NCBI GenBank assembly: GCA_964398415.1
Contig: CAYNOM010000002.1
Location: forward strand, 4,292-44,068
Direction of reading: 5' to 3'
Origin: an uncultured Polyangiales bacterium
Lineage (GTDB): Bacteria > Myxococcota_A > Polyangia > Polyangiales > DASUME01
DNA length: 39,777 bases
The first letter of the stretch is position 1. Every line of letters starts with the position of its first letter. The notes beneath the pieces are model-generated. The model was not told where the DNA came from. It saw only the letters and a program-made list of their open reading frames with translations, and searched no databases. Positions 24,171-35,801 of this stretch are shown in pieces. A program made the position numbers and the translations under genes.

Positions 24171-25070
24171 ATGCCCGTTTCGCGTCATGTGTGCATGCTC
24201 GTCGCTCCCGTGCTGCTTTCGGCGCTGTCGGCCTGCGGCTCCATCTCGAATGCGAAAACGAGTGCGCAGGAGCTCGGGGCTCCGTTCGTGTCTCGCGAAC
24301 AATTTGTAGCGGCGCGCGCGACGGGGGCGCTCGTGCTCGATGCGCGGGCCACCTCCGACTACGCAGGGGGCCACATCGCCGGCGCCGTGAGCGCACCGTG
24401 GCAAGCTTTCGTCGAGGGTGAGAAGAGCGGGCTGTTGGCCCCGACAAGGGCGCTCGAGCGGTTGCTACGCGAGCGCGGTGTATCCGCCGAACGCGCGGTG
24501 CTCGTCTACGGCGCCTGGGATGACGCGTGGGGCGAAGAGGGCCGCCTGTTCTGGATGCTCGAGTATCTCGGCCATCGCGACGTGCGCATTCTGGAGGGTG
24601 GCTACGGCGCGTGGCGCGCAGAGGGCCTTGCGACGGATGTCGAAGTGGTTCGGCCGCGGCAGGGTGACTTCGTGGCCCGCCCGCGGGCTGAGCTGCGCGC
24701 GCTCGCCGACGACGTGAAGCGTGCGATCGAAGCCGGTGACGCCGTGATCCTCGACACGCGCACGCTCCCCGAATACATGGGCGTCACTTCGTTCGGCGAG
24801 GCGCGCGGGGGCCACATCCCGAAGGCCGTGCACTTCGCGTGGTCGAACGTGTTCGATAGCCAGGGCGCGCTGCGCGCAAAGCACGATCTCGAGGCGCAGC
24901 TCAAACAGCTCGGCATCGGCCCAGATACCCAGGTCATCGCCTACTGCACGGGCGGCATTCGCTCGGGCTTTCTATACGCCATCTTGCGTTGGCTCGGGCA
25001 CCCGCACGCGCGAAACTACGATGGATCCTACTGGGAGTGGGCGCGCCTTCAGGAGCTGCCGGTGGAGTAG
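24171..25070 (+). CDS. Two-domain rhodanese sulfurtransferase, lipoprotein
   Basis: Lipobox LLSALSACGS. Two rhodanese repeats. Catalytic loop IAYCTGGIRSG in the second repeat. Confidence 0.85.
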   Translation: MPVSRHVCMLVAPVLLSALSACGSISNAKTSAQELGAPFVSREQFVAARATGALVLDARATSDYAGGHIAGAVSAPWQAFVEGEKSGLLAPTRALERLLRERGVSAERAVLVYGAWDDAWGEEGRLFWMLEYLGHRDVRILEGGYGAWRAEGLATDVEVVRPRQGDFVARPRAELRALADDVKRAIEAGDAVILDTRTLPEYMGVTSFGEARGGHIPKAVHFAWSNVFDSQGALRAKHDLEAQLKQLGIGPDTQVIAYCTGGIRSGFLYAILRWLGHPHARNYDGSYWEWARLQELPVE

Positions 25071-25098: not shown

Positions 25099-25698
25099 AT
25101 GGCTCGGCGCGGGAGTAAGCTGCGGCCCTTGCTTGCCGAGGACTCCGTGGGCGCGCACGTCTACCCATTGCCGTTCGATGACACCGAGCACGCCGAGTTG
25201 CAGCGCGCCCTGGGGTGTCGATCCGTGGATGCTTTGCTCGGGTTCATGACCGCGCTCGTGAGCTTGCCCGAGGTGATCCCCACGGGAGCCTGGCTCGGCG
25301 AGCTGCTCAAGGACGCAGACCTCTCCGATGGGCCGCACATCGAGCGCGTCGCTTCGCACCTCGCGCGGCTCAACAACTTGATCGCGAGCGCGCTGAGCTT
25401 CTCCGAGATCGAGCGCTTCTGTCCGGCTGCGAGCGATGAGCCAGCCTGTCGTGCTTGGGCCCAGGGCTATCTCGACGTCATCGATCAGATCGACCTCGAG
25501 GGTGAGAGTGATGAGGTCCACGAGGACGTGGTGGCGCTGTCGTCGGTGGCGTTGCGCGTCGACGACGCGTTGCTCGCGCCCGAGCTCGAGGGCATGACGC
25601 CCGAGGCCTATCGTGCGGCGAGTCGCAAGGAGCTCGCGGCCATCGCCGCAGAGCTGCACCAGACGTGGCACAAGCGGCGCGCCGGACGGCGTCGCTAA
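25099..25698 (+). CDS. UPF0149 (YecA/YgfB N-terminal-like) family protein
   Basis: Pattern LLGFMTALVSLPEVIPTGAWLGELL...CRAWAQGYL resembles UPF0149 from memory. Coding-like GC3. Confidence 0.6.
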   Translation: MARRGSKLRPLLAEDSVGAHVYPLPFDDTEHAELQRALGCRSVDALLGFMTALVSLPEVIPTGAWLGELLKDADLSDGPHIERVASHLARLNNLIASALSFSEIERFCPAASDEPACRAWAQGYLDVIDQIDLEGESDEVHEDVVALSSVALRVDDALLAPELEGMTPEAYRAASRKELAAIAAELHQTWHKRRAGRRR

Positions 25699-25768
25699 AT
25701 CCGCTTCGTGCTTGGTTGGCGCGAGATCCCTCGATAAGGTGATCCGAGGGACAGGGCCAAGGGGGACG

Positions 25769-27061
25769 ATGGTGGCAGAGCGAGCCGACGAGGAGCTGTT
25801 GCCGGGACGGGCGGCAGAGCCCGATCGCTTCGAATTCCGGGGCGAGATCGCCTGCGGGGGCATGGGCAGCATCTACGACGTCGTCGATCGCACCTTGCGT
25901 CGCCGCCTGGCCATGAAGGTGCTGCATCCGCTGATGGCGGGCAGCGCCACCGAGCTCAACACCTTCGTGCGCGAGGCGCGACGCACGGCCAAGCTCGAGC
26001 ACCCGAGCATCGTGCCCGTGCACGACCTCTTCGCCGATCAGGCGAGCGAGAGCGCTTCGTTCGTGATGAAGTTCGTCGAGGGCGAGACCCTCTCGGCGTG
26101 GATTCAGCGCGAAGGGACGGCCGGCGGGATCCGCGGGCGCACGCTGGAGCGCGCGCTGCAGATCATCACCAAGGTGTGTGATGCCGTCGAGTTCGCCCAC
26201 AGTCGCGAGGTCTTGCACCTCGATTTGAAGCCCGACAACGTGATGATCGGCGAGCACGGCGAGGTGTACCTGATGGATTGGGGCATCTCCGTCGACTGCG
26301 AGCGCAACGCCGAAGGGCGGCTCGTGCCCCGCCTCGAGCGGCCCGGGGCGCGCGGCACACTCAGCCACATGGCGCCCGAGCAGCTCGACATGCTGCTGGC
26401 GCGCGTCGATGAGCGCGCCGACATCTACGGCCTCGGCGGGCTGCTCTACGAGGTGCTCACGGGTCGGGCGCCGTTCGTGCCCACTGGAGCTCCCGAAGAC
26501 CTCTTGCGTCTGCGCGAGCATCGGGTGCCGGCGCCCGAGGACGTGGCTCCGAGCCACGCCCTGCCGCCCGGCCTCGTGGCCATCGCCATGCGCTGTCTCG
26601 CCTTCGAGCGCGACGCGCGCTACCCGAGCGTGGGCGCGCTCAAGGTCGACCTCGAGAGCTTTCTGCGCGGCGGTGGCTGGTTTCAGACGAAGGCCTTCGC
26701 CGCCTCGGAAGACTTGGTGCGGGAGGGAGAGAAGGGCGACGCCGCCTACATTCTCGTCGAGGGCGAGTGCGACATCATCAAGGGCCACGGCGAGCACGCG
26801 CGCGTGGTGGGGCGCATCGGAGCGGGCGAAATCACCGGCGAGACCGCCTTGCTCGCGACAGGCACTCGCACCGCAACCGTGCGTGCGGTGACTTTCGTGC
26901 GGGTGCTCGTGGTGACGCGCGAGACGCTGGAGCGCGAGCTCGAGGGGCGCGGCTGGCTCGAAACCCTGGTACGCGCCCTGGCGCGCCGCTTCGCCGAGGC
27001 AGACAACGAGCGCACGAACCTGCGCGAGCAGCTCAGGCAACGTGGCTCGATCCCAGGCTAG
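25769..27061 (+). CDS. Ser/Thr protein kinase fused to a C-terminal cyclic-nucleotide-binding domain
   Basis: Internal ATG 25769 after AAGGGGGA. GGMGSIYDV, AMKVL, HLDLKPDNVMI, MDWGIS, HMAPEQ. The C-terminal cNMP-like region reads FAASEDLVREGEKGDAAYILVEGEC...GEITGETALL...RTATVRA. Confidence 0.9.
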   Translation: MVAERADEELLPGRAAEPDRFEFRGEIACGGMGSIYDVVDRTLRRRLAMKVLHPLMAGSATELNTFVREARRTAKLEHPSIVPVHDLFADQASESASFVMKFVEGETLSAWIQREGTAGGIRGRTLERALQIITKVCDAVEFAHSREVLHLDLKPDNVMIGEHGEVYLMDWGISVDCERNAEGRLVPRLERPGARGTLSHMAPEQLDMLLARVDERADIYGLGGLLYEVLTGRAPFVPTGAPEDLLRLREHRVPAPEDVAPSHALPPGLVAIAMRCLAFERDARYPSVGALKVDLESFLRGGGWFQTKAFAASEDLVREGEKGDAAYILVEGECDIIKGHGEHARVVGRIGAGEITGETALLATGTRTATVRAVTFVRVLVVTRETLERELEGRGWLETLVRALARRFAEADNERTNLREQLRQRGSIPG

Positions 27062-27433: not shown

Positions 27434-28105
27434 TCACGGGGGCGGTGCGACAGACGCGGTCGGGCAGACGGAGTTTCGCGCGCATCGCGCGTGCTCGAAC
27501 AGCGCCTCGAACACCGAGCGCACGTCTTCGAAGGCCCGCACAGCGCCCTGCCGCGCGCTCTCCCGCAGGGGCATGGCGTCTAGTCTCTGATCGAGCTCGT
27601 GACGAAAGCGCTGAAAGCGAGCCATGGTCTCCTTACCGTGTCCCCTGAAGTAGCGCGTGCTCCCGTCATCGAGCGCGAGACGAGCCGAGATCATGGGATA
27701 GAGCATGGCTGAGCCCAGTGCCGAGCCTTCGAGCACGTAGAGCCGACCGAGCAGGCTGGCCTCATCGAGCAGGCTCGTGTCTACGGTGCAGGCGCGGGCG
27801 ATCGCGGCGCGGAGCGACCTCGGCAGGCTGTGGGTGGCGCATCCGAGCGCCGCAAGATCCTGGTCCGCGAGCGCACTCTTGCGGGGCGTGCTGAGCAGAT
27901 GGGAGAGGCCCTTGGCTTCGAGCGCCCACTCGAGGTGACGATGGAGCTCCGCGTAGGCGCACAAGAGCTCGGCGTAGCTCGTGCGCGAGATCTCGCCCTT
28001 CGCGAGCAGCTCGGCGAACGCCGTCGACTCGGTCTGCTTGTGCTCGACCTGGGTCACCGCCTTGAGCCAAAGCGAGGCCTGCGGGATCAATGGGTGGAGT
28101 TCCAT
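27434..28105 (-). CDS. Heme oxygenase family protein (last gene of the operon)
   Basis: Internal ATG 28105 (MELHPLIPQ). LKAVTQVEHKQTESTAF matches the proximal-His helix (HO-1 LKEATKEVHTQAENAEF, from memory). LYVLEGSALGS matches the bacterial HO distal-helix motif YVLEGS.LGG. 223 aa. Confidence 0.75.
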   Translation of the reverse strand: MELHPLIPQASLWLKAVTQVEHKQTESTAFAELLAKGEISRTSYAELLCAYAELHRHLEWALEAKGLSHLLSTPRKSALADQDLAALGCATHSLPRSLRAAIARACTVDTSLLDEASLLGRLYVLEGSALGSAMLYPMISARLALDDGSTRYFRGHGKETMARFQRFRHELDQRLDAMPLRESARQGAVRAFEDVRSVFEALFEHARCARNSVCPTASVAPPP

Positions 28106-28554
28106 CTGCGAAGCTCCTCGATGAAGGCGTGAAGGTAAGGCTCGAAGGCGTAGGTGTCGGCCTCGTTCAACACCTCGGCCATGGCCTCGCGCAGGGTCTC
28201 GAAGCTCGACACGAGCGCGGCTGGCTCGATCAGTTGGCACAGCTGCTCGGCGACCCATTCGGCGTGGGCCTCCACGAAGTGCGTGAGGTCGGCCCGCACG
28301 TGCGCGAGCGCCACGCGCCTGAGCATGTGGCGCAGCTCTTCGATCCCCTCGGCACGGCCACCGTGAAGACGTCTCACGTCACCGAGGCGCTCGAGCGCGC
28401 GCACGTAGATGCGCTCTTCGGCAGCTTGCATGCGGCGCGCGGCAGACAGACGTTGGCCCATACCGGTTGCATACTCGCGTAACGCGTCGACCTCCTGGTC
28501 GCTCAAGAAGCGCCCCTCGGCGTTGACGATCATCGATCTGAGCTCGGTGTTCAT
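28087..28554 (-). CDS. Phycobiliprotein-like (phycobilisome protein family, globin fold) protein A
   Basis: ATG 28554 overlaps the kinase stop as ATGA. MNTELRSMIVNAEGRFLSDQEVDAL...RLSAARRMQAAEERI aligns by eye with phycocyanin/allophycocyanin N-termini (..AD.QGRFLS..EL...). C-terminal YLHAFIEEL resembles YIDYAINAL. 155 aa. Confidence 0.6.
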   Translation of the reverse strand: MNTELRSMIVNAEGRFLSDQEVDALREYATGMGQRLSAARRMQAAEERIYVRALERLGDVRRLHGGRAEGIEELRHMLRRVALAHVRADLTHFVEAHAEWVAEQLCQLIEPAALVSSFETLREAMAEVLNEADTYAFEPYLHAFIEELRRWNSTH

Positions 28555-30146
28555 GCGTCTCCCCCTGAAAATGGAATGCGTTCGACGCGTCCCTGTGCGT
28601 CGACCCACGCGAGGCTCGAGGCATTGGCCGCGAGCCCCACGATGGGTTGATCGAGTGCGGTGCGTGCCCGTGCGCCCGTACGCACGTCGAAACTGTAGAG
28701 CGAGCCTTCCTTCTCGATGCCGTACAGGCGCTGCCCGTCGAAGGCTGAGGGTCGCGCGGGCAAGCGCACGCTCCTCGTGCCCGCGGCGCTGAGCAGCAGC
28801 ACACGGCCTTCGGCGCCAGACACATCTGCCACCAAGATCTGGCCGTCATCGTGGACCCACAGGCGCTGCACGTGTGCATCGACAGCGATCTTGCGAGCTT
28901 CGAACATCACGCATGCGCCCCCACCCGCAACCCCCGCGAGTGCGAGCGCGCCGCTCGCGCCGACTGCGAGGGCGGTGATGCGCTGGCCGAGCTCGACTGG
29001 AGCACGCTGCTCCTCTCTACCGCCCGCGATGCGGGCCTTGCCCTCCGTGGCCACTGCGATCTCACCACGCGGACCGAGCGCGATGCACGCACCAGGTCGG
29101 ACGCGCATGCCACGCACGGGGCCGTGGGGGCCATGGACGCGCACTTCGTTGCCATGGCGCAGCGCGAAGTACTCTCCATGGGCCAGCATTTCGTCTACGT
29201 CGCTGTGGGCTTCCTGCGCGTCGCCGCGCGGCCCATGACGCGAGACATCGCGGCCCGTGCGCAGCAGCAATGCGTAAGGCGTGAGGGCCAGCTCCTCGAC
29301 GCCGGGTGCGTAGAGCGGCCAACGCTCGTTCACGAACTCGGAGGCTTCGTCACGCAGCGCGAGCGTCAGGGCGGAGATCCACGCGTCCACCGTATCGAAG
29401 CGATCTTCGGGCCGTTTGGCCAAGCTCCGCTCGAGCAAGAGGCGCATGCGCGGTGGCAGCCACTCAGGAAGCACCGGCTCGCGCTCCAGGTGCGCCAGCA
29501 TGATTTGGGCCGGCGTGCCCGCGAAAGGTCTTTGCCCGCACAGGATCTCGTAGACCACGACGCCCAGCGAGTAGACGTCCACGCGTCTGTCGTAGGAGTC
29601 GTAGAACTGCTCAGGCGCCATGTACGCAGGAGAGCCGCTGTTGCTACGCGTGGCCGCCTCCACGCCGAGCGCAGAGATGCCGAAGTCGGTGACTTTGGCG
29701 CGCAGGCCGCCGCCGCTGCGCGTGACGAGGATGTTCTCGGGCTTCAAGTCGCGGTGCAGCACGTTGCGCGCATGGGCGTACGCCACGCCCGCCGCGGCCT
29801 CGCGCACGAGCTCGAGCGTGGCCACTACCTCTGTGCCGAGGTTGATGCGCTCACGCAGGGAGCCGAGCTCCATGTATTCGTACACGAGGTAGCGCAGGCC
29901 CTGCTCCATGAACACCGAATCCGCGCGTACCACCGCGGGATGGGCGAGGTCGAAGACGGCCCCGATCTCACGCATGAAGGTGTCTTCGCCCGCGAGCGCC
30001 GAGAACTCCTTGAGCGCCACACGACGCTGGGCCTTGACGTCGTGCGCGAGGTAGACGCGTCCGTGGGCGCCTTGTCCGAGCACGCGCTCGGTGGCGTAAC
30101 GCCCGCCGAGTAAGCGTCTCTCTCTCTCGTAGCCCGCGAGATTCAA
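28551..30146 (-). CDS. Ser/Thr protein kinase with ~250-aa beta-rich C-terminal domain
   Basis: GQGAHGRVYLA, VALKEF, HRDLKPENILV, DFGIS, AYMAPEQ. The proposed TTG start at 30146 overlaps the upstream stop as TTGA, with AAGGGGG 10 nt upstream. The ORF start 30482 and ATG 30257 would overlap the V4R gene extensively. Confidence 0.9.
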   Translation of the reverse strand: MNLAGYERERRLLGGRYATERVLGQGAHGRVYLAHDVKAQRRVALKEFSALAGEDTFMREIGAVFDLAHPAVVRADSVFMEQGLRYLVYEYMELGSLRERINLGTEVVATLELVREAAAGVAYAHARNVLHRDLKPENILVTRSGGGLRAKVTDFGISALGVEAATRSNSGSPAYMAPEQFYDSYDRRVDVYSLGVVVYEILCGQRPFAGTPAQIMLAHLEREPVLPEWLPPRMRLLLERSLAKRPEDRFDTVDAWISALTLALRDEASEFVNERWPLYAPGVEELALTPYALLLRTGRDVSRHGPRGDAQEAHSDVDEMLAHGEYFALRHGNEVRVHGPHGPVRGMRVRPGACIALGPRGEIAVATEGKARIAGGREEQRAPVELGQRITALAVGASGALALAGVAGGGACVMFEARKIAVDAHVQRLWVHDDGQILVADVSGAEGRVLLLSAAGTRSVRLPARPSAFDGQRLYGIEKEGSLYSFDVRTGARARTALDQPIVGLAANASSLAWVDAQGRVERIPFSGGDA

Positions 30147-30802
30147 GACGCTGAGACCCCCTTCAGCTTGTCTAGGATCTCGCTTGCCGGGCGCTTCTGC
30201 TTCACCCACGCGGACGCTGGTGCGAGCCGGTCTGTCATTCCAACTACGAACTTGCATGACTCGTCTCCCTGGCTTCGACACGCGATCTCGACACAGCTCA
30301 GATCCCGCCCCGAGATGTGTGAGATCAGAGATCCCAAGACACCGGCGACGAGGTGATCCGAGGGCCTGTCGAGCTTGCCTACACTCGCGCTGTAGGGGGC
30401 TCCGCTCACGTCGGCGACGATGAAGCCCTGCGCTGCGAGGTCGAAGGACAGCTCGAGATTGCCCCAGCCGAGCAGGCCCCACGAGCGGCGCAGGCTCTGC
30501 ACGTACATGGCGAGCGGGATTTCGTGGAGCGCCCGTCCATGGAAGGCGCGCACCTCATCCGAGTGTCTTTGGGCGTAGCGCGCCCCCCACCACTTGCCGA
30601 CGCTGTAGAGGACCACGGGAGCGGCGCTGCCCGTCTCTTCTTCGAGGCCCTTGTGAAGGCCCTGGATCAGCTGTTCTGGAATCGCGAGCATGCGCGTCCC
30701 CATCGGGCTTCGGATCACGCCCTTTCTGACGTCGAGCTTCAGGTAGCTCTCGGCGCGGTAGGGATTGGTGGCCATGCTCGCGGGATCGTCGGGGCGGTTC
30801 AT
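30143..30802 (-). CDS. V4R (4-vinyl reductase-type small-molecule-binding) domain protein 1
   Basis: The ATG overlaps the upstream stop as ATGA (30799-30802). C-terminal V4R signature HLVAGVLGSLISHISGRDLSCVEIACRSQGDESCKFVVG. Paralogous to 31650-32294. Confidence 0.7.
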   Translation of the reverse strand: MNRPDDPASMATNPYRAESYLKLDVRKGVIRSPMGTRMLAIPEQLIQGLHKGLEEETGSAAPVVLYSVGKWWGARYAQRHSDEVRAFHGRALHEIPLAMYVQSLRRSWGLLGWGNLELSFDLAAQGFIVADVSGAPYSASVGKLDRPSDHLVAGVLGSLISHISGRDLSCVEIACRSQGDESCKFVVGMTDRLAPASAWVKQKRPASEILDKLKGVSAS

Positions 30803-31290
30803 GCGTCACTCCTTTCGTGCTCGAGCTCGGTGATGATGAGCTCGATGTAGGGAGCGAGGCGTCTTCCGCGCTCCGCTCCGAGATGCGTGATCGCGGCGTC
30901 GACCAGTCGTTTGTAGCCGTAGATCATCGGTTCTTTCGGCATCAGCGCGACCACGATGGTCTTCATCCAGATCGCGAGCTTGTCGCGGACGAAGTCGGGG
31001 TCGGACAGCAGCATGCCCAGCACCGCGTAGCGGTACACGAAGGTCATGTCGCGGCGCCCGCGCAGCTCGCTGTCTGCTCCGTGATTGCGCGCGAGCTCGG
31101 GGTGACGAGCCATCAGCGCCGAGAGCGCGTCATCGATGATGAGCTTCTCCTGGGCTTCGAGCTCGCGAACCGAGGGCAACGCGACGAGCAAGCTCTCCGT
31201 GTAGGCACGAATCTCGGCCTCTTCGGTCTCCGTGAAGTAGCGACTCTGGGCGCCGTAGAGCGCCTTTCTGACATCGGCCTGCATACTCAT
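30799..31290 (-). CDS. Phycobiliprotein-like (globin fold) protein B
   Basis: Start ATG 31290 or 31284, with GAGGAG directly upstream. ...ALYGAQSRYFTETEEAEIRAY...ELEAQEKLIIDDALSAL parallels protein A and phycobiliprotein N-termini. GRRDMTFVYRYAVLGML aligns by eye with the C-A-R-D-x3-Y-L-R chromophore-site helix. ~162 aa. Confidence 0.55.
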   Translation of the reverse strand: MSMQADVRKALYGAQSRYFTETEEAEIRAYTESLLVALPSVRELEAQEKLIIDDALSALMARHPELARNHGADSELRGRRDMTFVYRYAVLGMLLSDPDFVRDKLAIWMKTIVVALMPKEPMIYGYKRLVDAAITHLGAERGRRLAPYIELIITELEHERSDA

Positions 31291-31294
31291 CTCC

Positions 31295-31636
31295 TCACGT
31301 CCAGTTGAAGGCGCCGAACACGGCATCCACCGTTTGACCCTGCTGATGATCGGTCGGGCCATCGGCCTTACCCGTCCAATTCACGGTCGAGAACACGAGA
31401 CCCACGGGTCTTGCGGCATCGGCGAGGCGCACGCGCTTCTGATCGTCGGGCAAGACGCCCCAGCGCACGTGGCGCGCGAACACCGAGCCTGCCGGGCGCG
31501 CCATCAAGGGGTCGACCCTGTGGGGCTCGATGCGCGGGGGAAGGCTTCTCGTCGTGCGCGCGAGGCGACTCGTCTCGGGCCTTTGCGGCTCGTCGCTGCG
31601 CGCGGGAGGCGGAAGGGTTGCGGCGTGCATGCTCAT
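31295..31636 (-). CDS. Orphan 113-aa protein
   Basis: GAGGAAAG SD 3 nt before ATG 31636. GC-rich third positions. The stop lies 4 nt before the next start. Pro/Arg-rich N-terminal half, beta-like C-terminal half with VNWT/FNWT. No family recognised. Confidence 0.45.
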   Translation of the reverse strand: MSMHAATLPPPARSDEPQRPETSRLARTTRSLPPRIEPHRVDPLMARPAGSVFARHVRWGVLPDDQKRVRLADAARPVGLVFSTVNWTGKADGPTDHQQGQTVDAVFGAFNWT

Positions 31637-31649
31637 GGACTTTCCTCGC

Positions 31650-32294
31650 TCACAGCCGCCCGATGACGTCGTTGGCGCTCGCGCCCTCTTCGAGCCAGAA
31701 CTGCACGGCGTTGATCTTCTGCTCGGCGCCGATGACGAAGCGGCAGTAGGTCGCGCCCATGGCGTAACACTGGATTTCGATGCCGCTCAGATCGCGCTTG
31801 GCGAGGTGCGTCAGGGCGCCCGCCAGCATGCCGGCGTAGAGGTGACACACGGGCTTTCCCACTTCGCCTAGGGTCTTCGCTACGGCTGAGTCGAAGAGGT
31901 TCACGAGGATGAGGCCCTGATCGCGCTTGCCATCGAGGTCGACCTCCCATGCGCCCCAGCCCATGGTCTGCAGCGGCCACCACCACTCCTCGAGCACGAA
32001 CTTCACGTTCATCTGCCGCATGTCGCGTCCAAACTCGCGCAGCATGTTGCTCTCGAAGCGCTTGAGGTCGGTGAGCCCCCACTGAAAGCCGCAGCGATAG
32101 AGGACTACGGCCGAGGCATCGCCCACCTCCTGCTCGAGGCCCGCCTGCAGGCCAACGATGAAATCCTCCGAAGCGAAGAACGCGAGCTCGTCGTTTCGAG
32201 TGCGCACGCTTCCGCCCTTCGGGTCGAAGCGGAAGTAGTCTTCGAGGGTGAAGTAGTTGTGCTTCTTGGGTTGCTGTCCGATGATCACGCTCAC
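31650..32294 (-). CDS. V4R domain protein 2
   Basis: GTG start 32294, with GGGGGA 4 nt upstream. V4R signature KPVCHLYAGMLAGALTHLAKRDLSGIEIQCYAMGATYCRFVIG. Confidence 0.7.
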   Translation of the reverse strand: MSVIIGQQPKKHNYFTLEDYFRFDPKGGSVRTRNDELAFFASEDFIVGLQAGLEQEVGDASAVVLYRCGFQWGLTDLKRFESNMLREFGRDMRQMNVKFVLEEWWWPLQTMGWGAWEVDLDGKRDQGLILVNLFDSAVAKTLGEVGKPVCHLYAGMLAGALTHLAKRDLSGIEIQCYAMGATYCRFVIGAEQKINAVQFWLEEGASANDVIGRL

Positions 32295-32304
32295 GGTTTC
32301 CCCC

Positions 32305-32784
32305 TCACGCGTCTCGCGTGTCCTTCATGACCCTCTGCAGATCGGCTTCGACCTGCATCAGCTGCTGCGCGGTGCTGCGCGTGATGATCTTGCCGGCCTG
32401 AACCAGGACGCGGCCATCGACGGGGTGCAGCACGCGTAGCTCGGCGCGACGGCCCACGAGCTCGTCGATGTCCGCGTGTTGGGCCACGTACAAACCTTCA
32501 GGCAGCCTGATGACCACGCCGTCACGCAGCACCTTGGCCTGGCAGGCAAGTCGAGACTCGGAGGTTGCCTCGCCGATCAGCGATAGCGTGCGCTCTTCGC
32601 GCTTCGTGCGCGGCGTGATGCAGTTGTCTCCACTCTGCACGTAGACGTGGCAGGTGGCACAGATGCCGCGTCCACCGCAGGCCATCTTCACCGGCACGCG
32701 CTCCGCAAGCAGAGCTTGAAGCACGTTGGCTTCGGTCTTCACTTCCACGATCTTTGCGGTGCCCGCGAACTGGACGGTCTTCAT
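32305..32784 (-). CDS. [2Fe-2S] ferredoxin, adrenodoxin-type spacing, with ~60-aa C-terminal extension
   Basis: C-x5-C-x2-C-x35-C pattern (MACGGRGICATCHV...SRLACQA). The ATG overlaps the upstream stop as ATGA (32781-32784). Confidence 0.85.
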   Translation of the reverse strand: MKTVQFAGTAKIVEVKTEANVLQALLAERVPVKMACGGRGICATCHVYVQSGDNCITPRTKREERTLSLIGEATSESRLACQAKVLRDGVVIRLPEGLYVAQHADIDELVGRRAELRVLHPVDGRVLVQAGKIITRSTAQQLMQVEADLQRVMKDTRDA

Positions 32785-33701
32785 CGTCGTGCCTCCCCCG
32801 GTTTCGAATCGACAGCGTGGCCCTGCGCGTACGTCTCAGACTCGGCGGCGGCGCTACGCGAAAGCGCATCGAGATCGAGATCGCGGATCGACGGATCGAG
32901 GTCCGACACCAGGGCGATGAAAGCCTCGCACCAGCGCCGCACCATGACGCTCGCGCGTGAGAGCTCGAGCTCATCGGGGCGGCTGCAACGCACGCTGCCA
33001 TCGAGGTCGACCTCGAACGGATCCAGCGTTCCGTCGCTACACACGGCCTTGCGGGCGCGATTCAGATAGTTGCGCCGAACTGCACCACCGAGGTTCTTAC
33101 CCGCGTGCGCCGACAGGGCGGCCACCTGTGCGAGCAGACCCTGCGCGTCGAGCTCGCTCGGCCCATCGCTCGTGCGCGTGAACGCGAGAGGTGCCTCGCG
33201 TGGGGCATTCGATCTCGCGAGCAGCGCCGACGGAGAGAGCGGCTCGAGCTTGAGCGACGACGGTGGCGGTACGGTGGCTACGTCTTCGGGCTCGGGTGCA
33301 GGGACAGTGATGGTGGCGGGGCGTGACGCGGGTGAGGACGACCGAAGCGGGCCCCCGTCGCCACTGAGAGCCGATCCCACCGCATCGACGAGCGACGGTA
33401 CCGACAGGGCGACCCGGCTGACCACGGCGTGGAGGTGTGCTCCCTCCCTGACGCGCAGCGCGACGCTGCCCTTGCCGGCTCTGAGCCATACGATGCGGCA
33501 CGTGGCCGTCTCCACCTCCAGAAAACGCGCATCGGGCTGACGCTCGAAGAGCTGACTCAGGATGGGTAGGGCCTGAGAGAGCGCATCGGCATGGGCGTCG
33601 AGGCGCGCGCAGTAGGTGGAGCCATCCTCTGCGAAGAAGGCGACGCCGTCGACGTCTGGAACAGCAAGCATTCCGCTCAGGGTGTCGATCAATCCGAGCA
33701 T
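32781..33701 (-). CDS. Roadblock/LC7 (MglB-like) N-terminal domain protein with Pro/Ser-rich linker and C-terminal domain
   Basis: N-terminal MLGLIDTLSGMLAVPDVDGVAFFAEDGS...CRIVWLRAGKGSVALRVREGAHL fits the Roadblock/LC7 pattern by eye. The start overlaps the upstream gene by 13 nt. Confidence 0.5.
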   Translation of the reverse strand: MLGLIDTLSGMLAVPDVDGVAFFAEDGSTYCARLDAHADALSQALPILSQLFERQPDARFLEVETATCRIVWLRAGKGSVALRVREGAHLHAVVSRVALSVPSLVDAVGSALSGDGGPLRSSSPASRPATITVPAPEPEDVATVPPPSSLKLEPLSPSALLARSNAPREAPLAFTRTSDGPSELDAQGLLAQVAALSAHAGKNLGGAVRRNYLNRARKAVCSDGTLDPFEVDLDGSVRCSRPDELELSRASVMVRRWCEAFIALVSDLDPSIRDLDLDALSRSAAAESETYAQGHAVDSKPGEARR

Positions 33702-34276
33702 GTGAGCCCCTTCAGGGTGCTCTCGAGCAGGTCACGACTGGGCGGTCTGCCGACGTCGGTGAGGCACACCGCTGCGTCGCGGCCGCGGGGACGCAGCACG
33801 GCCATCACCCGGTCGTCGCACAGGCTGGCCGAAAGCGCCTCGGTCTCGCCCAGGGCGTGCGCCGTGGCGGCCGCGATCTGCTGAGTCAGGTTCATCGCAT
33901 CGAGCCAACGCGGTGAGAGCGAGAGCTGAGAGAGCTCTTGTCGCGAGGGCGGCGCACTCAACGTGAAGCTGCACAGGATGCCCGGCGCGATGGGGCGAAC
34001 CGTGGGCGTTGCGCTCGTATCGATGTGGATCTCCCGTGACATGACGCTCCGTAGGGCGTGAAGGTGGGTGGCATTCAGCGCGCGCGCCAAGCGTGCTGAC
34101 TTGCGCGGGCCGTCCCGGCTCGCGTCCTCGTCGAGCTCGTGCCGGGTCGTAGACAGCGTGATGCCGTCTTGTTGAACGGTGGTGACGAGGTGTGCAGGGT
34201 CGCTCTCACTCGCCACGGTCTTGACCTCGAGCGTGCGATCGGAAAGCTCGACGCTGGACTGCCTGTGCATGCTCAT
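33689..34276 (-). CDS. Hypothetical protein, possible divergent Roadblock-like C-terminal half
   Basis: The ATG overlaps the GTPase stop as ATGA (34273-34276). Coding-like GC3. The C-terminal AAATAHALGETEALSASLCDDRVMAVLRPRGRDAAVCLTD weakly resembles the second half of a Roadblock fold. Confidence 0.45.
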   Translation of the reverse strand: MSMHRQSSVELSDRTLEVKTVASESDPAHLVTTVQQDGITLSTTRHELDEDASRDGPRKSARLARALNATHLHALRSVMSREIHIDTSATPTVRPIAPGILCSFTLSAPPSRQELSQLSLSPRWLDAMNLTQQIAAATAHALGETEALSASLCDDRVMAVLRPRGRDAAVCLTDVGRPPSRDLLESTLKGLTCSD

Positions 34277-35397
34277 GCTCCCGCCGAGCGGAACCAGCCG
34301 CGTCGCTTGCGCGTGTCGTTCGACAGCTCTTCGAGGGACTCCTGTAGATTTTGGAGGTCGCGATGCAGTGCACCCTGACCTGCCCGCACCTGGGCATCGA
34401 CCTCGCGGAGGCTGTCACTCAGATCGTGCAGGTCGGCCAGCTCCTTGCGAATGTCCGCGATCAGCTCCCCCCGCAGCAACGGAAGTTGGTCGAGCCGCTC
34501 CACGACACTTTGGTGCAGGCGGTCGTTGGCGACGGGCACCACGGCCACGGCTTCCTTCAGGGTCTCTCCCGTCTGGTGAATGAGCTTTCGAGTTCCGATG
34601 GTCTGCTCTTCGAGCGCGCGTCGTAGACTACGCATGTCGCGCTCACGGGCTTCGGCGTCGACCTTCAGCGCGTCGATGGTCTGGTGGGCAGCGTCGACGC
34701 GTGCGTGCAGGGCAACGAAGCGTTCTGCCAGGCTGTCGAGGGCGCCCACGATGCGATCGAGCTTGCTCGAGGTGCGCTCCCCTTCGAGTCTCTGTCTCAG
34801 GCCACTCGTCTGGGGATCCTGAAATGCTCGGCGCGCCGCCTGTTCGTAAGCGCACTGCAGCGCAGCGACGACGCCCTGTCCGGTGCTCGCCACGCTCTCG
34901 AAGCACAACGCGTCGGGCATGCCGATGCTGCGCAGAAGCTCCTCACGCGAGCTCGGGTCTGGGTCGTCGGCATGGTTGAGCTGTACCACCACCGGCAGCG
35001 TGCTGAGGGTTTGACCCTGGCGACTCAGATCATCGAACAAGCGCTGCGCCGCCTGCTCGTTGGCCGGGCCATGCGCCTTGCCTGAGTGCAGCACCAGCAC
35101 GACCGCATCGGCGCCCTGCAACAGACGCTCGGTGGTGGTCCGCTGCCGAGCCTCGCCCACGAGACCCCGCACGCGGACCAGCACTTGTGCCCCTTCGAGC
35201 GCATCGCGTTGATTGGGCACCCAATCAAACATCGCCGTGCGATCGCCGTTCTGGTTGAGCGAGATAAGCTCGGTGGCTCTGCCGGCCTCGGTGGCGCGCC
35301 GCACCGCTTCGAGTGCCGCGAGCTTGCCCGCGCCCTCGGGCCCCAAGTAGGCAATACACAGCTCCACCGAGCCGCGCTCCACATCCACGCGTGGCAT
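34273..35397 (-). CDS. MglA-like small GTPase domain (degenerate G motifs) fused to ~190-aa coiled-coil tail; first gene of the operon
   Basis: ATG 35397, with GAGGGGGG 4 nt upstream. ELCIAYLGPEGAGKLAAL / LISLNQNGDRTAMFDWVP / GADAVVLVLHSG / LPVVVQLNHADDP / ASTGQGV are collinear with M. xanthus MglA (IVYYGPGLCGKTTNL / LISLSTETDRTLFFDFLP / GVDGVVFVADSQ / IPYVIQYNKRDLP / APTGVGV, from memory). Confidence 0.75.
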   Translation of the reverse strand: MPRVDVERGSVELCIAYLGPEGAGKLAALEAVRRATEAGRATELISLNQNGDRTAMFDWVPNQRDALEGAQVLVRVRGLVGEARQRTTTERLLQGADAVVLVLHSGKAHGPANEQAAQRLFDDLSRQGQTLSTLPVVVQLNHADDPDPSSREELLRSIGMPDALCFESVASTGQGVVAALQCAYEQAARRAFQDPQTSGLRQRLEGERTSSKLDRIVGALDSLAERFVALHARVDAAHQTIDALKVDAEARERDMRSLRRALEEQTIGTRKLIHQTGETLKEAVAVVPVANDRLHQSVVERLDQLPLLRGELIADIRKELADLHDLSDSLREVDAQVRAGQGALHRDLQNLQESLEELSNDTRKRRGWFRSAGA

Positions 35398-35801
35398 GGT
35401 TCCCCCCTCATGCGCGCCCATCTGCCGGGCGTCTATCCCGTAACAGGGATGTCCTAAGTTAAACAGCAGCCATGGACAAAGTCTATGTTTGCCTAGGGTG
35501 TGGACCGATTTTGGTGGCAGGCCTTGAGGCGACCAGCGCTGGCATGCGCTGTGGGATCACACCACTTATTCTGAGTAGTTGCGATGCCATGAGTGGGCGC
35601 GCATGCAGTCTTGCGCAGCTGCTCTGGCGCTCACCGTGGGTCACTGTTTGTTCATTGTTTGGTTCGGGTAGGGTGGTTGTGCAGGGCAACCACGCGGGCG
35701 CGCCTTGTAGGCCGTGACCCGCGTGTGCACTGGGCGGCTTGGGGGCTTGTCCCCATAGTTGCGTCTCGAGGCGCTGAGCCTTCGTGAGAAGGAGAGGACG
35801 A
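35398..35801. promoter_or_regulatory. ~400-bp divergent intergenic region between the 11-gene operon and the LLM oxidoreductase gene
   Basis: Longest non-coding gap in the window and visibly less GC-rich than its surroundings. Contains a TGTTTG direct repeat 11 bp apart (35645-35650, 35656-35661) and a 7-bp-stem hairpin/palindrome gtggttg-N7-caaccac (35673-35693). No confident -35/-10 or sigma-54 element identified. Confidence 0.4.

What the first reader, a model, noticed from the sequence alone, without database searches (positions are those of the whole stretch)
28087..28554. Phycobiliprotein-like protein A: GRFLS N-terminal signature but no cysteine at the canonical bilin-attachment position
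Seen: the 155-aa product begins MNTELRSMIVNAEGRFLSDQEVDALREY...RLSAARRMQAAEERI. By eye this lines up with the N-terminal helices of phycocyanin/allophycocyanin subunits (from memory ..AD.QGRFLS..EL......R..A.EAA..L..). It ends ..YLHAFIEEL, like the ..YIDYAINAL C-terminal helix. The position aligned with the chromophore motif K-C-x-R-D reads A-E-G-I-E, and the only Cys (EQLCQLI) lies elsewhere. Inference: this is a divergent member of the phycobilisome-protein/globin fold outside a photosynthetic context. Any bilin binding would have to be non-covalent or use a different site. Such homologues are relevant to how light-harvesting phycobiliproteins arose.
Basis: partly seen in the sequence, partly recalled or inferred. 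Interest (0 to 1): 0.75.

Follow-up and report, generated by a model that had tools for sequence, protein, structure and literature searches.

The report
Cysteine-less phycobiliprotein relative in myxobacterial bilin operon
This is a real gene for a protein with the fold of a cyanobacterial light-harvesting phycobiliprotein, sitting in a heme-oxygenase operon of a non-photosynthetic myxobacterium; it has lost the usual pigment-attachment site, and it belongs to a family (BBAGs) already described in 2023.

Summary
Window 28087-28554 (minus strand) encodes a 155-aa protein that passes Pfam PF00502 (37.8 bits against a cut-off of 22.2). Its AlphaFold model (pLDDT 87) matches allophycocyanin subunits over the full length (TM 0.70-0.76). 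The canonical C-x-R-D bilin motif reads G70-I71-E72-E73, and the only Cys is C106.

The gene is under purifying selection (dN/dS 0.20). It is translationally coupled to an upstream Ser/Thr kinase and a downstream heme oxygenase. The operon order is ferredoxin, V4R, small protein, globin B, V4R, kinase, globin A, HO. I found this operon in 13 independent loci, and those that carry an organism name are Myxococcota or Polyangiaceae MAGs.

This is the gene-cluster type that Rockwell, Martin and Lagarias (PNAS 2023) described as pre-PcyA/BBAG clusters, so the kind is known.

Three points are not in the papers I read:
- Globin A belongs to a separable "A-type" paralogue group of 41 distinct sequences. 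None has the canonical Cys, and only about 45% keep the Arg-Asp pair. Its operon partner, globin B, always keeps Arg-Asp.
- The kinase is a constant cluster member.
- This cluster carries HO but no bilin reductase.

Most likely globin A is a site-degenerate accessory or regulatory subunit. Non-covalent or Cys106-linked biliverdin binding is not excluded.

The parts
28087..28554 (-). Globin A: 155-aa phycobiliprotein-fold protein (A-type BBAG paralogue). CxRD is replaced by G70-I71-E72-E73, and the sole Cys is C106.
   Evidence: PF00502 at 37.8 bits. AF2 and Foldseek match allophycocyanin. dN/dS is 0.20.
27434..28105 (-). Heme oxygenase (223 aa from the ATG at 28105). Its start overlaps the last 19 nt of globin A.
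   Evidence: PF01126, E 2.2e-14. The same 19-nt overlap occurs in L001. A proximal-His motif VEHKQTE and YVLEGSALGS were read by eye in the translation.
28551..30146 (-). Ser/Thr protein kinase (about 531 aa, TTG start) with an uncharacterised C-terminal domain of about 280 aa. Its TGA stop overlaps the globin A ATG (ATGA).
   Evidence: PF00069, E 2.9e-45. The length matches the 532-aa L001 orthologue. A kinase is present in all 13 type-I loci.
30143..30802 (-). V4R-domain protein 2
   Evidence: PF02830, E 3.5e-10. Its position is conserved.
30799..31290 (-). Globin B: second phycobiliprotein-fold protein (about 161-163 aa; start at M25 or M27 of the ORF). It has G-R-R-D at the canonical site (no Cys, Arg-Asp kept).
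   Evidence: PF00502, E 8.8e-17. PDB best hits are ApcD and ApcB. Arg-Asp is kept in 18 of 18 B-type sequences.
31295..31636 (-). Small conserved protein (113 aa) with repeated F-x-x-(V/F)-N-W-(T/S)-G motifs
   Evidence: No Pfam hit. Positional homologues in L001, L006, L007, L017 and L018 carry the same motif.
31650..32294 (-). V4R-domain protein 1, the best conserved gene of the cluster
   Evidence: PF02830, E 5.2e-19. It is 57-81% identical across loci.
32305..32784 (-). 2Fe-2S ferredoxin
   Evidence: PF00111, E 4.1e-11. It resembles the ISC-type ferredoxin family.
32781..35421 (-). Three upstream co-oriented overlapping genes (306, 195 and 382 aa). The 382-aa protein has a Ras/Arf-like GTPase-related N-terminus with a degenerate P-loop, followed by a coiled coil.
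   Evidence: They are conserved in L001. The 382-aa protein is 32% identical (E 2e-25) to a PF00025-positive GTPase in L018. None of the three has its own Pfam hit.

Best explanation
Globin A is a bilin-biosynthesis-associated globin (BBAG), a non-photosynthetic paralogue of phycobiliproteins. It belongs to a distinct "A-type" paralogue group found in the Myxococcota version of the HO / ferredoxin / V4R / globin cluster.

Shown here: it has the full phycobiliprotein fold, including the N-terminal X-Y helical hairpin. It is under purifying selection. It is translationally coupled to a Ser/Thr kinase upstream and a heme oxygenase downstream. Its canonical bilin site is gone: Cys, Arg and Asp are replaced by Gly, Glu and Glu, and the B-E loop before the site is 6-7 residues shorter than in ApcA.

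Inferred: the operon makes biliverdin IXalpha, with HO as the enzyme and the 2Fe-2S ferredoxin as a plausible electron donor. Globin B, which always keeps the Arg-Asp pair, is the main bilin holder. Globin A acts as a chromophore-poor accessory or regulatory subunit of a ferredoxin/V4R/globin complex whose state is read or set by the kinase. This is by analogy with the physically interacting Slr0144-Slr0149 proteins and the SpkG kinase of Synechocystis. Any bilin that globin A does bind must be held non-covalently or through Cys106.
For: Family and fold:
- PF00502 scores above its cut-off.
- The family profile reaches ApcA at E 1e-13.
- The AF2 model and Foldseek match allophycocyanin subunits.

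Cluster identity:
- The order Fer2, V4R, small ORF, globin B, V4R, kinase, globin A, HO or FDBR recurs in 13 independent loci.
- PF05996 bilin reductases sit next to globin A or HO in 5 of them.
- This composition (HO, Fe-S protein, two V4R proteins, one or two globins) matches the published pre-1/pre-3 BBAG clusters, apart from the reductase missing in this window (PMC10151467).

Degenerate site:
- Cys at the C81-equivalent position: 0 of 41 A-type, 1 of 18 B-type, 27 of 88 other BBAG-like sequences.
- Arg at the R83-equivalent position: 18 of 41 A-type against 18 of 18 B-type.
- Asp at the D84-equivalent position: 19 of 41 A-type against 18 of 18 B-type.
- Conservation in A-type sequences is concentrated in the N-terminal MNT...AEGRYL hairpin, in R79, D89 and W100, and not at the bilin motif.

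Real, selected gene: dN/dS is 0.20, and the junctions are ATGA, TTGA and a 19-nt overlap.

Complex and kinase analogy: Slr0144-Slr0149 interact with one another (PMC9880817). spkG is the last gene of that operon and is needed for Fd5 phosphorylation (PMC11863333).

A pairing of one Arg-Asp-retaining globin with one site-degenerate globin also occurs in a second, distant cluster type.
Against: - No binding, complex formation or phosphorylation was tested.
- Cys-less phycobiliproteins (ApcD3, ApcE2) bind phycocyanobilin non-covalently (PMC10810746), so loss of Cys alone does not mean loss of pigment.
- E73 keeps a carboxylate where Asp normally contacts the pyrrole nitrogens.
- Cys106 is invariant in the six closest relatives and present in 14 of 41 A-type sequences. 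It lies one helical turn from the ApcE Cys196-equivalent position, which could mark a relocated attachment site.
- About 45% of A-type proteins still have Arg-Asp.
- The A/B heteromer is inferred only from co-occurrence. The tools gave no model coordinates, so pocket geometry could not be examined.
- The kinase is not always adjacent to globin A (L011, L014).
Confidence: 0.5

Rival explanations
1. Globin A is itself a genuine biliverdin-binding chromoprotein. It holds the bilin non-covalently (as ApcD3 and ApcE2 hold phycocyanobilin) or through a thioether to Cys106 on the helix that precedes the ApcE Cys196-equivalent position. It then acts as the light, redox or bilin sensor that controls the co-translated kinase.
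For: - It is translationally coupled to HO.
- The phycobiliprotein fold is intact, with high model confidence.
- Non-covalent binding in Cys-less allophycocyanin subunits, which also have shortened B-E loops, is a precedent (PMC10810746).
- Cys106 is invariant in the six closest relatives and present in 14 of 41 A-type sequences. It lies three residues before the ApcE Cys196 column, and 6 of 18 B-type globins carry a Cys in that column.
- BBAG-2 proteins bind biliverdin through a non-canonical RGMC cysteine (PMC10151467).
Against: - The Arg and Asp that hold the bilin in phycobiliproteins are both replaced (E72, E73). Arg to Glu reverses the charge that would face a propionate.
- The motif is evolutionarily labile across A-type proteins. 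That is not expected for a working site.
- Cys106 aligns with ApcA R117, not with a known attachment residue, and 27 of 41 A-type sequences lack it.
Confidence: 0.33
2. It is a heme-binding sensor globin rather than a bilin-related protein.
For: Phycobiliproteins have a globin-like fold, and the neighbouring HO handles heme.
Against: - No His is conserved across the A-type family. H85 is 59% conserved and no other His is conserved.
- The profile matches listed in PDB are all phycobiliprotein chains. So are the 50 Foldseek hits listed.
Confidence: 0.05
3. It is a true light-harvesting phycobiliprotein (allophycocyanin) acquired from a cyanobacterium.
For: The best solved-structure matches are ApcA and ApcD.
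Against: - NCBIfam ApcA, ApcB and CpcB equivalog models score 12-17 bits against cut-offs of 228-279.
- Identity to allophycocyanins is 16-26%.
- There is no Cys, Arg or Asp at the chromophore site.
- There is no adjacent alpha/beta gene pair, and no linker or lyase among the operon genes.
- The relatives that carry an organism name are in Myxococcota MAGs.
Confidence: 0.01
4. It is a decaying duplicate with no function of its own.
For: The canonical site is lost and the motif varies within the family.
Against: - dN/dS is 0.20.
- The ORF is intact and has the same length in the 13 loci where both globins were found, with identity to the window protein down to about 32%.
- It has a strong ribosome-binding site and coupled junctions.
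- The N-terminal hairpin and core residues are strongly conserved.
Confidence: 0.03

Closest known systems
BBAG-1 / BBAG-3 (bilin biosynthesis-associated globins; Rockwell, Martin & Lagarias, PNAS 2023, PMC10151467)
   Same: It is a phycobiliprotein paralogue in heterotrophic bacteria. It is encoded in a cluster with HO, a 2Fe-2S protein, two V4R proteins and one or two globins. Related loci also carry a pre-PcyA-type bilin reductase. The taxon is Myxococcota, as for pre-3 clusters.
   Different: [quoted passage not shown] This protein has G-I-E-E at that site. This cluster has no FDBR within the 39.8-kb window. A Ser/Thr kinase is an integral, translationally coupled member, and the papers I read do not discuss a kinase for these clusters. 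Whether A-type sequences were in the published tree could not be checked, because the figures are not held.
Synechocystis slr0144-slr0152 operon (Slr0149 globin, two V4R proteins, ferredoxin Fd5, SpkG kinase)
   Same: The set of families is the same: globin, two V4R proteins, a 2Fe-2S ferredoxin and a Ser/Thr kinase in one operon. The Synechocystis proteins interact physically, and SpkG is needed for Fd5 phosphorylation.
   Different: The Synechocystis operon is cyanobacterial and linked to photosystem assembly. Per PMC10151467, the cyanobacterial clusters lack HO and FDBR. Orthology of the two kinases was not tested.
Allophycocyanin alpha-type subunits (ApcA, ApcD)
   Same: These are the best sequence and structure matches. 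The fold matches over the full length, including the X-Y hairpin (TM 0.70-0.76).
   Different: Identity is 16-26%. There is no chromophore cysteine or Arg-Asp pair. The B-E loop is 6-7 residues shorter. The protein fails the NCBIfam equivalog cut-offs and lies in no phycobilisome context.
ApcD3 / ApcE2 (far-red allophycocyanin subunits with non-covalent phycocyanobilin) and ApcE Cys196
   Same: They lack the canonical Cys yet are functional, and the far-red alpha subunits have shortened B-E loops. ApcE uses a Cys on the neighbouring helix or loop instead of the helix-E Cys.
   Different: ApcE keeps Arg-Asp (K-S-L-R-D). Whether ApcD3 and ApcE2 keep it was not checked here. Cys106 of globin A is three residues before the ApcE Cys196 column, not at it.
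Photoglobin / BBAG-2 (B12-associated bilin-binding globins)
   Same: They are non-heme globins related to phycobiliproteins and are found in Myxococcota. BBAG-2 binds biliverdin through a non-canonical Cys.
   Different: They are defined by a B12-binding partner or fusion and by CXQD or RGMC motifs. Neither is present here.

Membership tests
Pfam PF00502 (Phycobilisome protein superfamily) | Score above the Pfam gathering threshold over most of the profile | tested here: met
   37.8 bits against 22.2, profile positions 7-155 of 155.
Pfam PF00502 (Phycobilisome protein superfamily) | Globin-like helical fold with an N-terminal X-Y hairpin | tested here: met
   AF2 pLDDT is 86.9 with eight helices. 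Foldseek TM is 0.70-0.76 to ApcA, ApcB and ApcD over 155-164 columns.
Light-harvesting phycobiliprotein (ApcA/ApcB/CpcB equivalogs) | Score above the NCBIfam equivalog cut-off | tested here: not met
   12-17 bits against cut-offs of 228-279.
Light-harvesting phycobiliprotein (ApcA/ApcB/CpcB equivalogs) | Chromophore Cys (C81/84) with the Arg-Asp pair (CXRD) | tested here: not met
   The site reads G70-I71-E72-E73.
Light-harvesting phycobiliprotein (ApcA/ApcB/CpcB equivalogs) | Phycobilisome context (adjacent alpha/beta genes, linkers, lyases; phototroph) | tested here: not met
   The operon genes are HO, a kinase, V4R proteins, a ferredoxin and unknowns. The relatives that carry an organism name are Myxococcota MAGs.
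BBAG (bilin biosynthesis-associated globin, PMC10151467) | Phycobiliprotein/globin homologue genomically associated with bilin biosynthesis (HO and/or FDBR) | tested here: met
   HO overlaps the 3' end of the gene. FDBR lies next to the orthologue or its HO in L006, L011, L013, L018 and L021.
BBAG (bilin biosynthesis-associated globin, PMC10151467) | Pre-1/pre-3-type cluster partners: an Fe-S protein plus two V4R proteins | tested here: met
   PF00111 and two PF02830 genes lie in the same operon.
BBAG (bilin biosynthesis-associated globin, PMC10151467) | Pre-PcyA FDBR in the cluster | tested here: not met
   There is no PF05996 hit among the operon ORFs. tblastn with three FDBRs from related loci finds no match in the window. 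The paper does not require an FDBR for every BBAG.
BBAG (bilin biosynthesis-associated globin, PMC10151467) | Bilin binding | not testable with these tools
   This needs co-expression with HO and spectroscopy. The sequence argues against canonical binding.
BBAG (bilin biosynthesis-associated globin, PMC10151467) | [quoted passage not shown] | tested here: inconclusive
   hhalign gives A-type against B-type 184 and A-type against CxRD-type 180. The narrow A1 profile listed no canonical phycobiliprotein motif among its best 150 hits. NJ support for A-type monophyly is only 32 of 60 replicates.
Photoglobin / BBAG-2 | B12-binding partner or fusion; CXQD or RGMC motif | tested here: not met
   No B12-binding domain is found among the operon genes. 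The only Cys lies in EQLCQL.
Heme globin | Conserved proximal histidine | tested here: not met
   No His is conserved across the 41 A-type sequences.

The most novel reading that the evidence does not exclude
The A-type and B-type globins form a two-subunit, alpha/beta-like module. One subunit keeps the bilin-holding Arg-Asp pair. The other has given it up, or uses Cys106, and instead couples bilin, heme or oxygen status to a Ser/Thr kinase. Through the upstream GTPase-like, PatA_N and PilZ genes, this signal reaches cell behaviour in non-photosynthetic Myxococcota. If so, a heteromeric phycobiliprotein architecture with division of labour exists outside cyanobacteria, and BBAG clusters are signalling devices rather than pigment stores.
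Probability: 0.2. Interest if true: 0.65.

Novelty: new member of a known kind. Interest (0 to 1): 0.35.

Why it matters
The function of BBAG clusters is explicitly unknown (PMC10151467), and they bear on how phycobiliproteins and phycocyanobilin synthesis arose.

This locus adds three concrete handles:
- A second, systematically site-degenerate globin paralogue always accompanies an Arg-Asp-retaining one.
- A Ser/Thr kinase is a fixed, translationally coupled member, echoing SpkG in the cyanobacterial cluster.
- Natural HO-only variants lack the reductase, which suggests that biliverdin itself is the working bilin.

Together these make a signalling role testable. They do not change the published picture of the family.

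Tried and rejected
- A genome-collection scan with the close-relative alignment found nothing. Broader globin alignments were too diverse for the pattern search. I switched to the well-conserved V4R protein, which worked.
- The second word-indexed protein search added little.
- I tested whether globin A maps to alpha subunits and globin B to beta subunits. It does not. The A-type profile hits ApcA and ApcD first, but globin B also hits ApcD first and then ApcB.
- I tested whether the degenerate first globin of the distant tandem-globin clusters is orthologous to A-type. This is not supported: hhalign gives 108 to A-type and 131 to the CxRD type.
- I looked for a hidden bilin reductase among the unannotated operon ORFs. 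There are no Pfam or tblastn hits.
- I tested heme binding through a conserved His and rejected it.
- My NJ tree was too weak to place the A-type group.
- The promoter and terminator scan found nothing above the shuffled expectation.
- The N-terminus of the 306-aa upstream protein looked Roadblock/LC7-like by eye, but Pfam found nothing, so I make no claim.
- I looked for a link between Arg-Asp retention or Cys106 in globin A and the presence of HO or FDBR. None is apparent in the 13 loci.
Full report
**The gene.** On the minus strand, 28554 to 28087 is an ATG-initiated ORF of 155 codons. A GGGGGAG Shine-Dalgarno sequence lies 5 nt upstream. The mechanical ORF list extends it to a GTG at 28608. 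The shorter form is right, because MNT(E/Q)L is the N-terminus of nearly all relatives. Against the 73%-identical orthologue in locus L001, dN/dS is 0.20 and GC3 is 0.83. It is therefore a selected coding gene, not a chance ORF of a 67% GC genome.

**What it resembles.**
- Pfam PF00502 (Phycobilisome protein) matches at E 2.3e-9 and 37.8 bits (gathering score 22.2) over profile positions 7-155.
- phmmer against PDB sequences finds allophycocyanin alpha chains best, at E 8.8e-5.
- A profile of 36 relatives reaches ApcA at E 1.1e-13 and the ApcE bilin domain at E 1.1e-8.
- An AlphaFold2 model built on six close relatives has pLDDT 86.9 and pTM 0.77, with eight helices.
- The 50 Foldseek hits listed from the PDB are all allophycocyanin-type subunits or ApcE. 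TM-scores are 0.66-0.76 over the full length, so the phycobiliprotein-specific N-terminal hairpin is included.
- It is not a bona fide light-harvesting subunit. The NCBIfam ApcA, ApcB and CpcB equivalogs score 12-17 bits against cut-offs of 228-279.

**The chromophore site.**
- HMMER and MAFFT agree that ApcA D84 aligns with E73, R83 with E72 and C81 with G70.
- The loop before the site (the B-E loop) is 6-7 residues shorter than in ApcA (my count on the alignment) and four shorter than in the nearest outgroup, P0006.
- The only cysteine, C106, aligns with ApcA R117.
- I recovered the true ApcE sequence from PDB alignments. The ApcE attachment residue Cys196 corresponds to I109 of globin A. 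C106 therefore lies three residues, about one helical turn, before that column.

**Context in the window.** All genes below lie on the minus strand and abut or overlap. In transcription order they are:
- three unannotated genes (382, 195 and 306 aa);
- a 2Fe-2S ferredoxin;
- V4R protein 1;
- a 113-aa protein;
- globin B (PF00502, E 8.8e-17);
- V4R protein 2;
- a Ser/Thr kinase;
- globin A;
- a heme oxygenase.

The junctions are ATGA (globin B to V4R2), TTGA (V4R2 to kinase), ATGA (kinase to globin A) and a 19-nt overlap (globin A to HO). No ferredoxin-dependent bilin reductase is present in the 39.8-kb window by Pfam or by tblastn with three reductases from related loci.

**Relatives and their contexts.**
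- The word-indexed search found only five close relatives.
- An exhaustive profile search of 1.84 billion cluster representatives found 181 proteins at E <= 1e-3, and 68 at E <= 1e-10.
- Using the well-conserved V4R protein as bait, I retrieved loci from genomes and metagenomes. Gene orders came from tblastn and from precomputed Pfam annotation.
- Thirteen independent loci share the core Fer2, V4R1, (small ORF), globin B, V4R2, kinase, globin A. HO, FDBR or both follow globin A.
- The loci that carry an organism name are Myxococcota or Polyangiaceae MAGs, including a 9.9-Mb Polyangiaceae chromosome.
- A PF05996 reductase is present in five loci (L006, L011, L013, L018, L021).
- No reductase lies within the sequence held in five others, including this window. 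Three are cut by contig ends.
- In two loci the kinase lies a gene or two away from globin A (L011, L014).
- NCBI annotates these proteins as hypothetical.

**Two paralogue groups.**
- HMMs built from context-verified globin A and globin B sequences separate the collected proteins cleanly. There are 41 distinct A-type sequences, 18 B-type, and 88 other BBAG-like sequences.
- The canonical Cys occurs in 0 of 41 A-type, 1 of 18 B-type and 27 of 88 others.
- The Arg is kept in 18 of 41, 18 of 18 and 61 of 88. The Asp is kept in 19 of 41 (plus 9 Glu), 18 of 18 and 77 of 88.
- The bilin-holding pair is therefore invariant in B-type globins and evolutionarily labile in A-type globins.
- A-type conservation lies in the N-terminal MNT...AEGRYL hairpin, R79, D89, F93 and W100.
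- Cys106 occurs in 14 of 41 A-type sequences. Six of 18 B-type sequences carry a Cys exactly at the ApcE Cys196 column, though the window's globin B has Met there.
- The two globins of this window share no BLASTP-detectable similarity.
- Profile comparison puts B-type closest to the CxRD-bearing BBAG-like proteins (score 240). A-type is about equally distant from both (184 and 180).
- My neighbour-joining tree recovered A-type monophyly in only 32 of 60 bootstraps, so I do not claim a placement.

**What is already known.**
- Rockwell, Martin and Lagarias (PMC10151467) described this cluster type around pre-PcyA reductases in heterotrophic bacteria. It contains HO, an Fe-S protein, two V4R proteins and "one or two" phycobiliprotein homologues.
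- They named the globins BBAGs and showed that representatives bind bilins. They noted that only some carry CXRD. They found pre-3 clusters mainly in Myxococcales, with a distinct HO. They stated that BBAG function is unknown.
- A 2026 follow-up characterises the reductases (PMC13446030).
- The main text of neither paper discusses a kinase in these clusters.
- The related cyanobacterial operon slr0144-slr0152 ends with the kinase gene spkG, which is needed for phosphorylation of the operon's ferredoxin Fd5 (PMC11863333). Slr0144-Slr0149 co-purify (PMC9880817).
- Cys-less allophycocyanin subunits ApcD3 and ApcE2 hold phycocyanobilin non-covalently. Far-red alpha subunits have shortened B-E loops (PMC10810746).

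**Interpretation.**
- *Membership.* The protein meets the defining features of a BBAG that can be tested in silico: phycobiliprotein homology, linkage to HO, and Fe-S and V4R partners. It fails those of a light-harvesting phycobiliprotein, a photoglobin and a heme globin.
- *Mechanism, shown.* The fold, selection, coupling and loss of the canonical site are shown.
- *Mechanism, inferred.* The rest is inference. I think it most likely (about 0.5) that globin A is a chromophore-poor accessory or regulatory subunit. It would work alongside the Arg-Asp-retaining globin B in a ferredoxin/V4R/globin assembly that handles HO-derived biliverdin and is wired to the kinase.
- *Main rival.* The main rival (about 0.33) is that globin A still binds biliverdin, either non-covalently or through Cys106. 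The tools gave no model coordinates, so I could not examine the pocket.
- *Supporting pattern.* A pairing of one Arg-Asp-retaining and one degenerate globin also appears in a distant cluster type with tandem globins. Orthology of the degenerate members is not supported.

**Verdict.** However, the finding is a new member, in a so far uncharacterised paralogue group, of a family and cluster type published in 2023. Interest is moderate-low at 0.35.

Noticed in passing
window 31295-31636 (minus); also L001 6924-7259, L007 2608-2949, L006 6023-6130, L017 7443-7913, L018 6795-7202: A small protein always sits between V4R1 and globin B. It has no Pfam hit. It carries 2-3 copies of a short motif, F/L-x-x-(V/F/M)-(N/A/D/R)-W-(T/S/D/E/G)-G, with the last copy at the extreme C-terminus (for example AVFGAFNWT). 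It is conserved across very divergent clusters.
   Followed up: partly
window 34273-35421 (minus): The N-terminus of the 382-aa protein is 32% identical (E 2e-25) to an Arf/Ras-like GTPase domain of a 715-aa GTPase plus coiled-coil protein in L018. Its P-loop reads GPEGAGKL and its NKxD motif reads NHAD, so it may be a pseudo-GTPase. PatA_N and PilZ genes lie upstream of the related clusters (L006, L011-L014, L018).
   Followed up: partly
B-type globins in L011, L012, L014, L022 and proteins P0048, P0055, P0063: A third of B-type globins (6 of 18) have a Cys exactly at the column of ApcE Cys196, the non-canonical bilin attachment site of the phycobilisome core-membrane linker. They lack the canonical Cys. 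The window's own globin B has Met at this column.
   Followed up: partly
window 28551-30146 (minus), C-terminal ~280 residues: After its catalytic domain, the cluster kinase has a long C-terminal region with no Pfam match. It is rich in short repeats that look like beta-strands, so it may be a propeller-like sensor or docking domain.
   Followed up: no
L035-L038, L041, L043, L045, L048 (metagenome loci): A second, distant cluster architecture reads Fer2, V4R, V4R, globin, globin, HO, Fer2. Its two adjacent globins differ: the first has a degenerate site (for example F-A-Q-D) and the second keeps G-H-R-D. Neither has the canonical Cys.
   Followed up: partly
L017 (Deltaproteobacteria MAG, protein TNE49175.1): This related cluster has only one globin. 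The globin carries a canonical K-C-T-R-D motif and sits at the globin B position. The cluster also has a ParA/MinD-like ATPase, a Ser/Thr kinase and HO. The kinase association therefore extends beyond clusters that have an A-type globin.
   Followed up: partly
window 25613-27061 (+), 25099-25698 (+), 24171-25070 (+): Just downstream of the operon, on the opposite strand, lie a second Ser/Thr kinase fused to a cyclic-nucleotide-binding domain, a UPF0149 protein and a tandem rhodanese protein.
   Followed up: no
window 31650-32294 (minus) and orthologues: V4R protein 1 is far better conserved (57-81% identity) than either globin. It has three invariant cysteines (GKPVC, IQCY, CRF) and an invariant WWWPLQxMGWG motif.
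   Followed up: no
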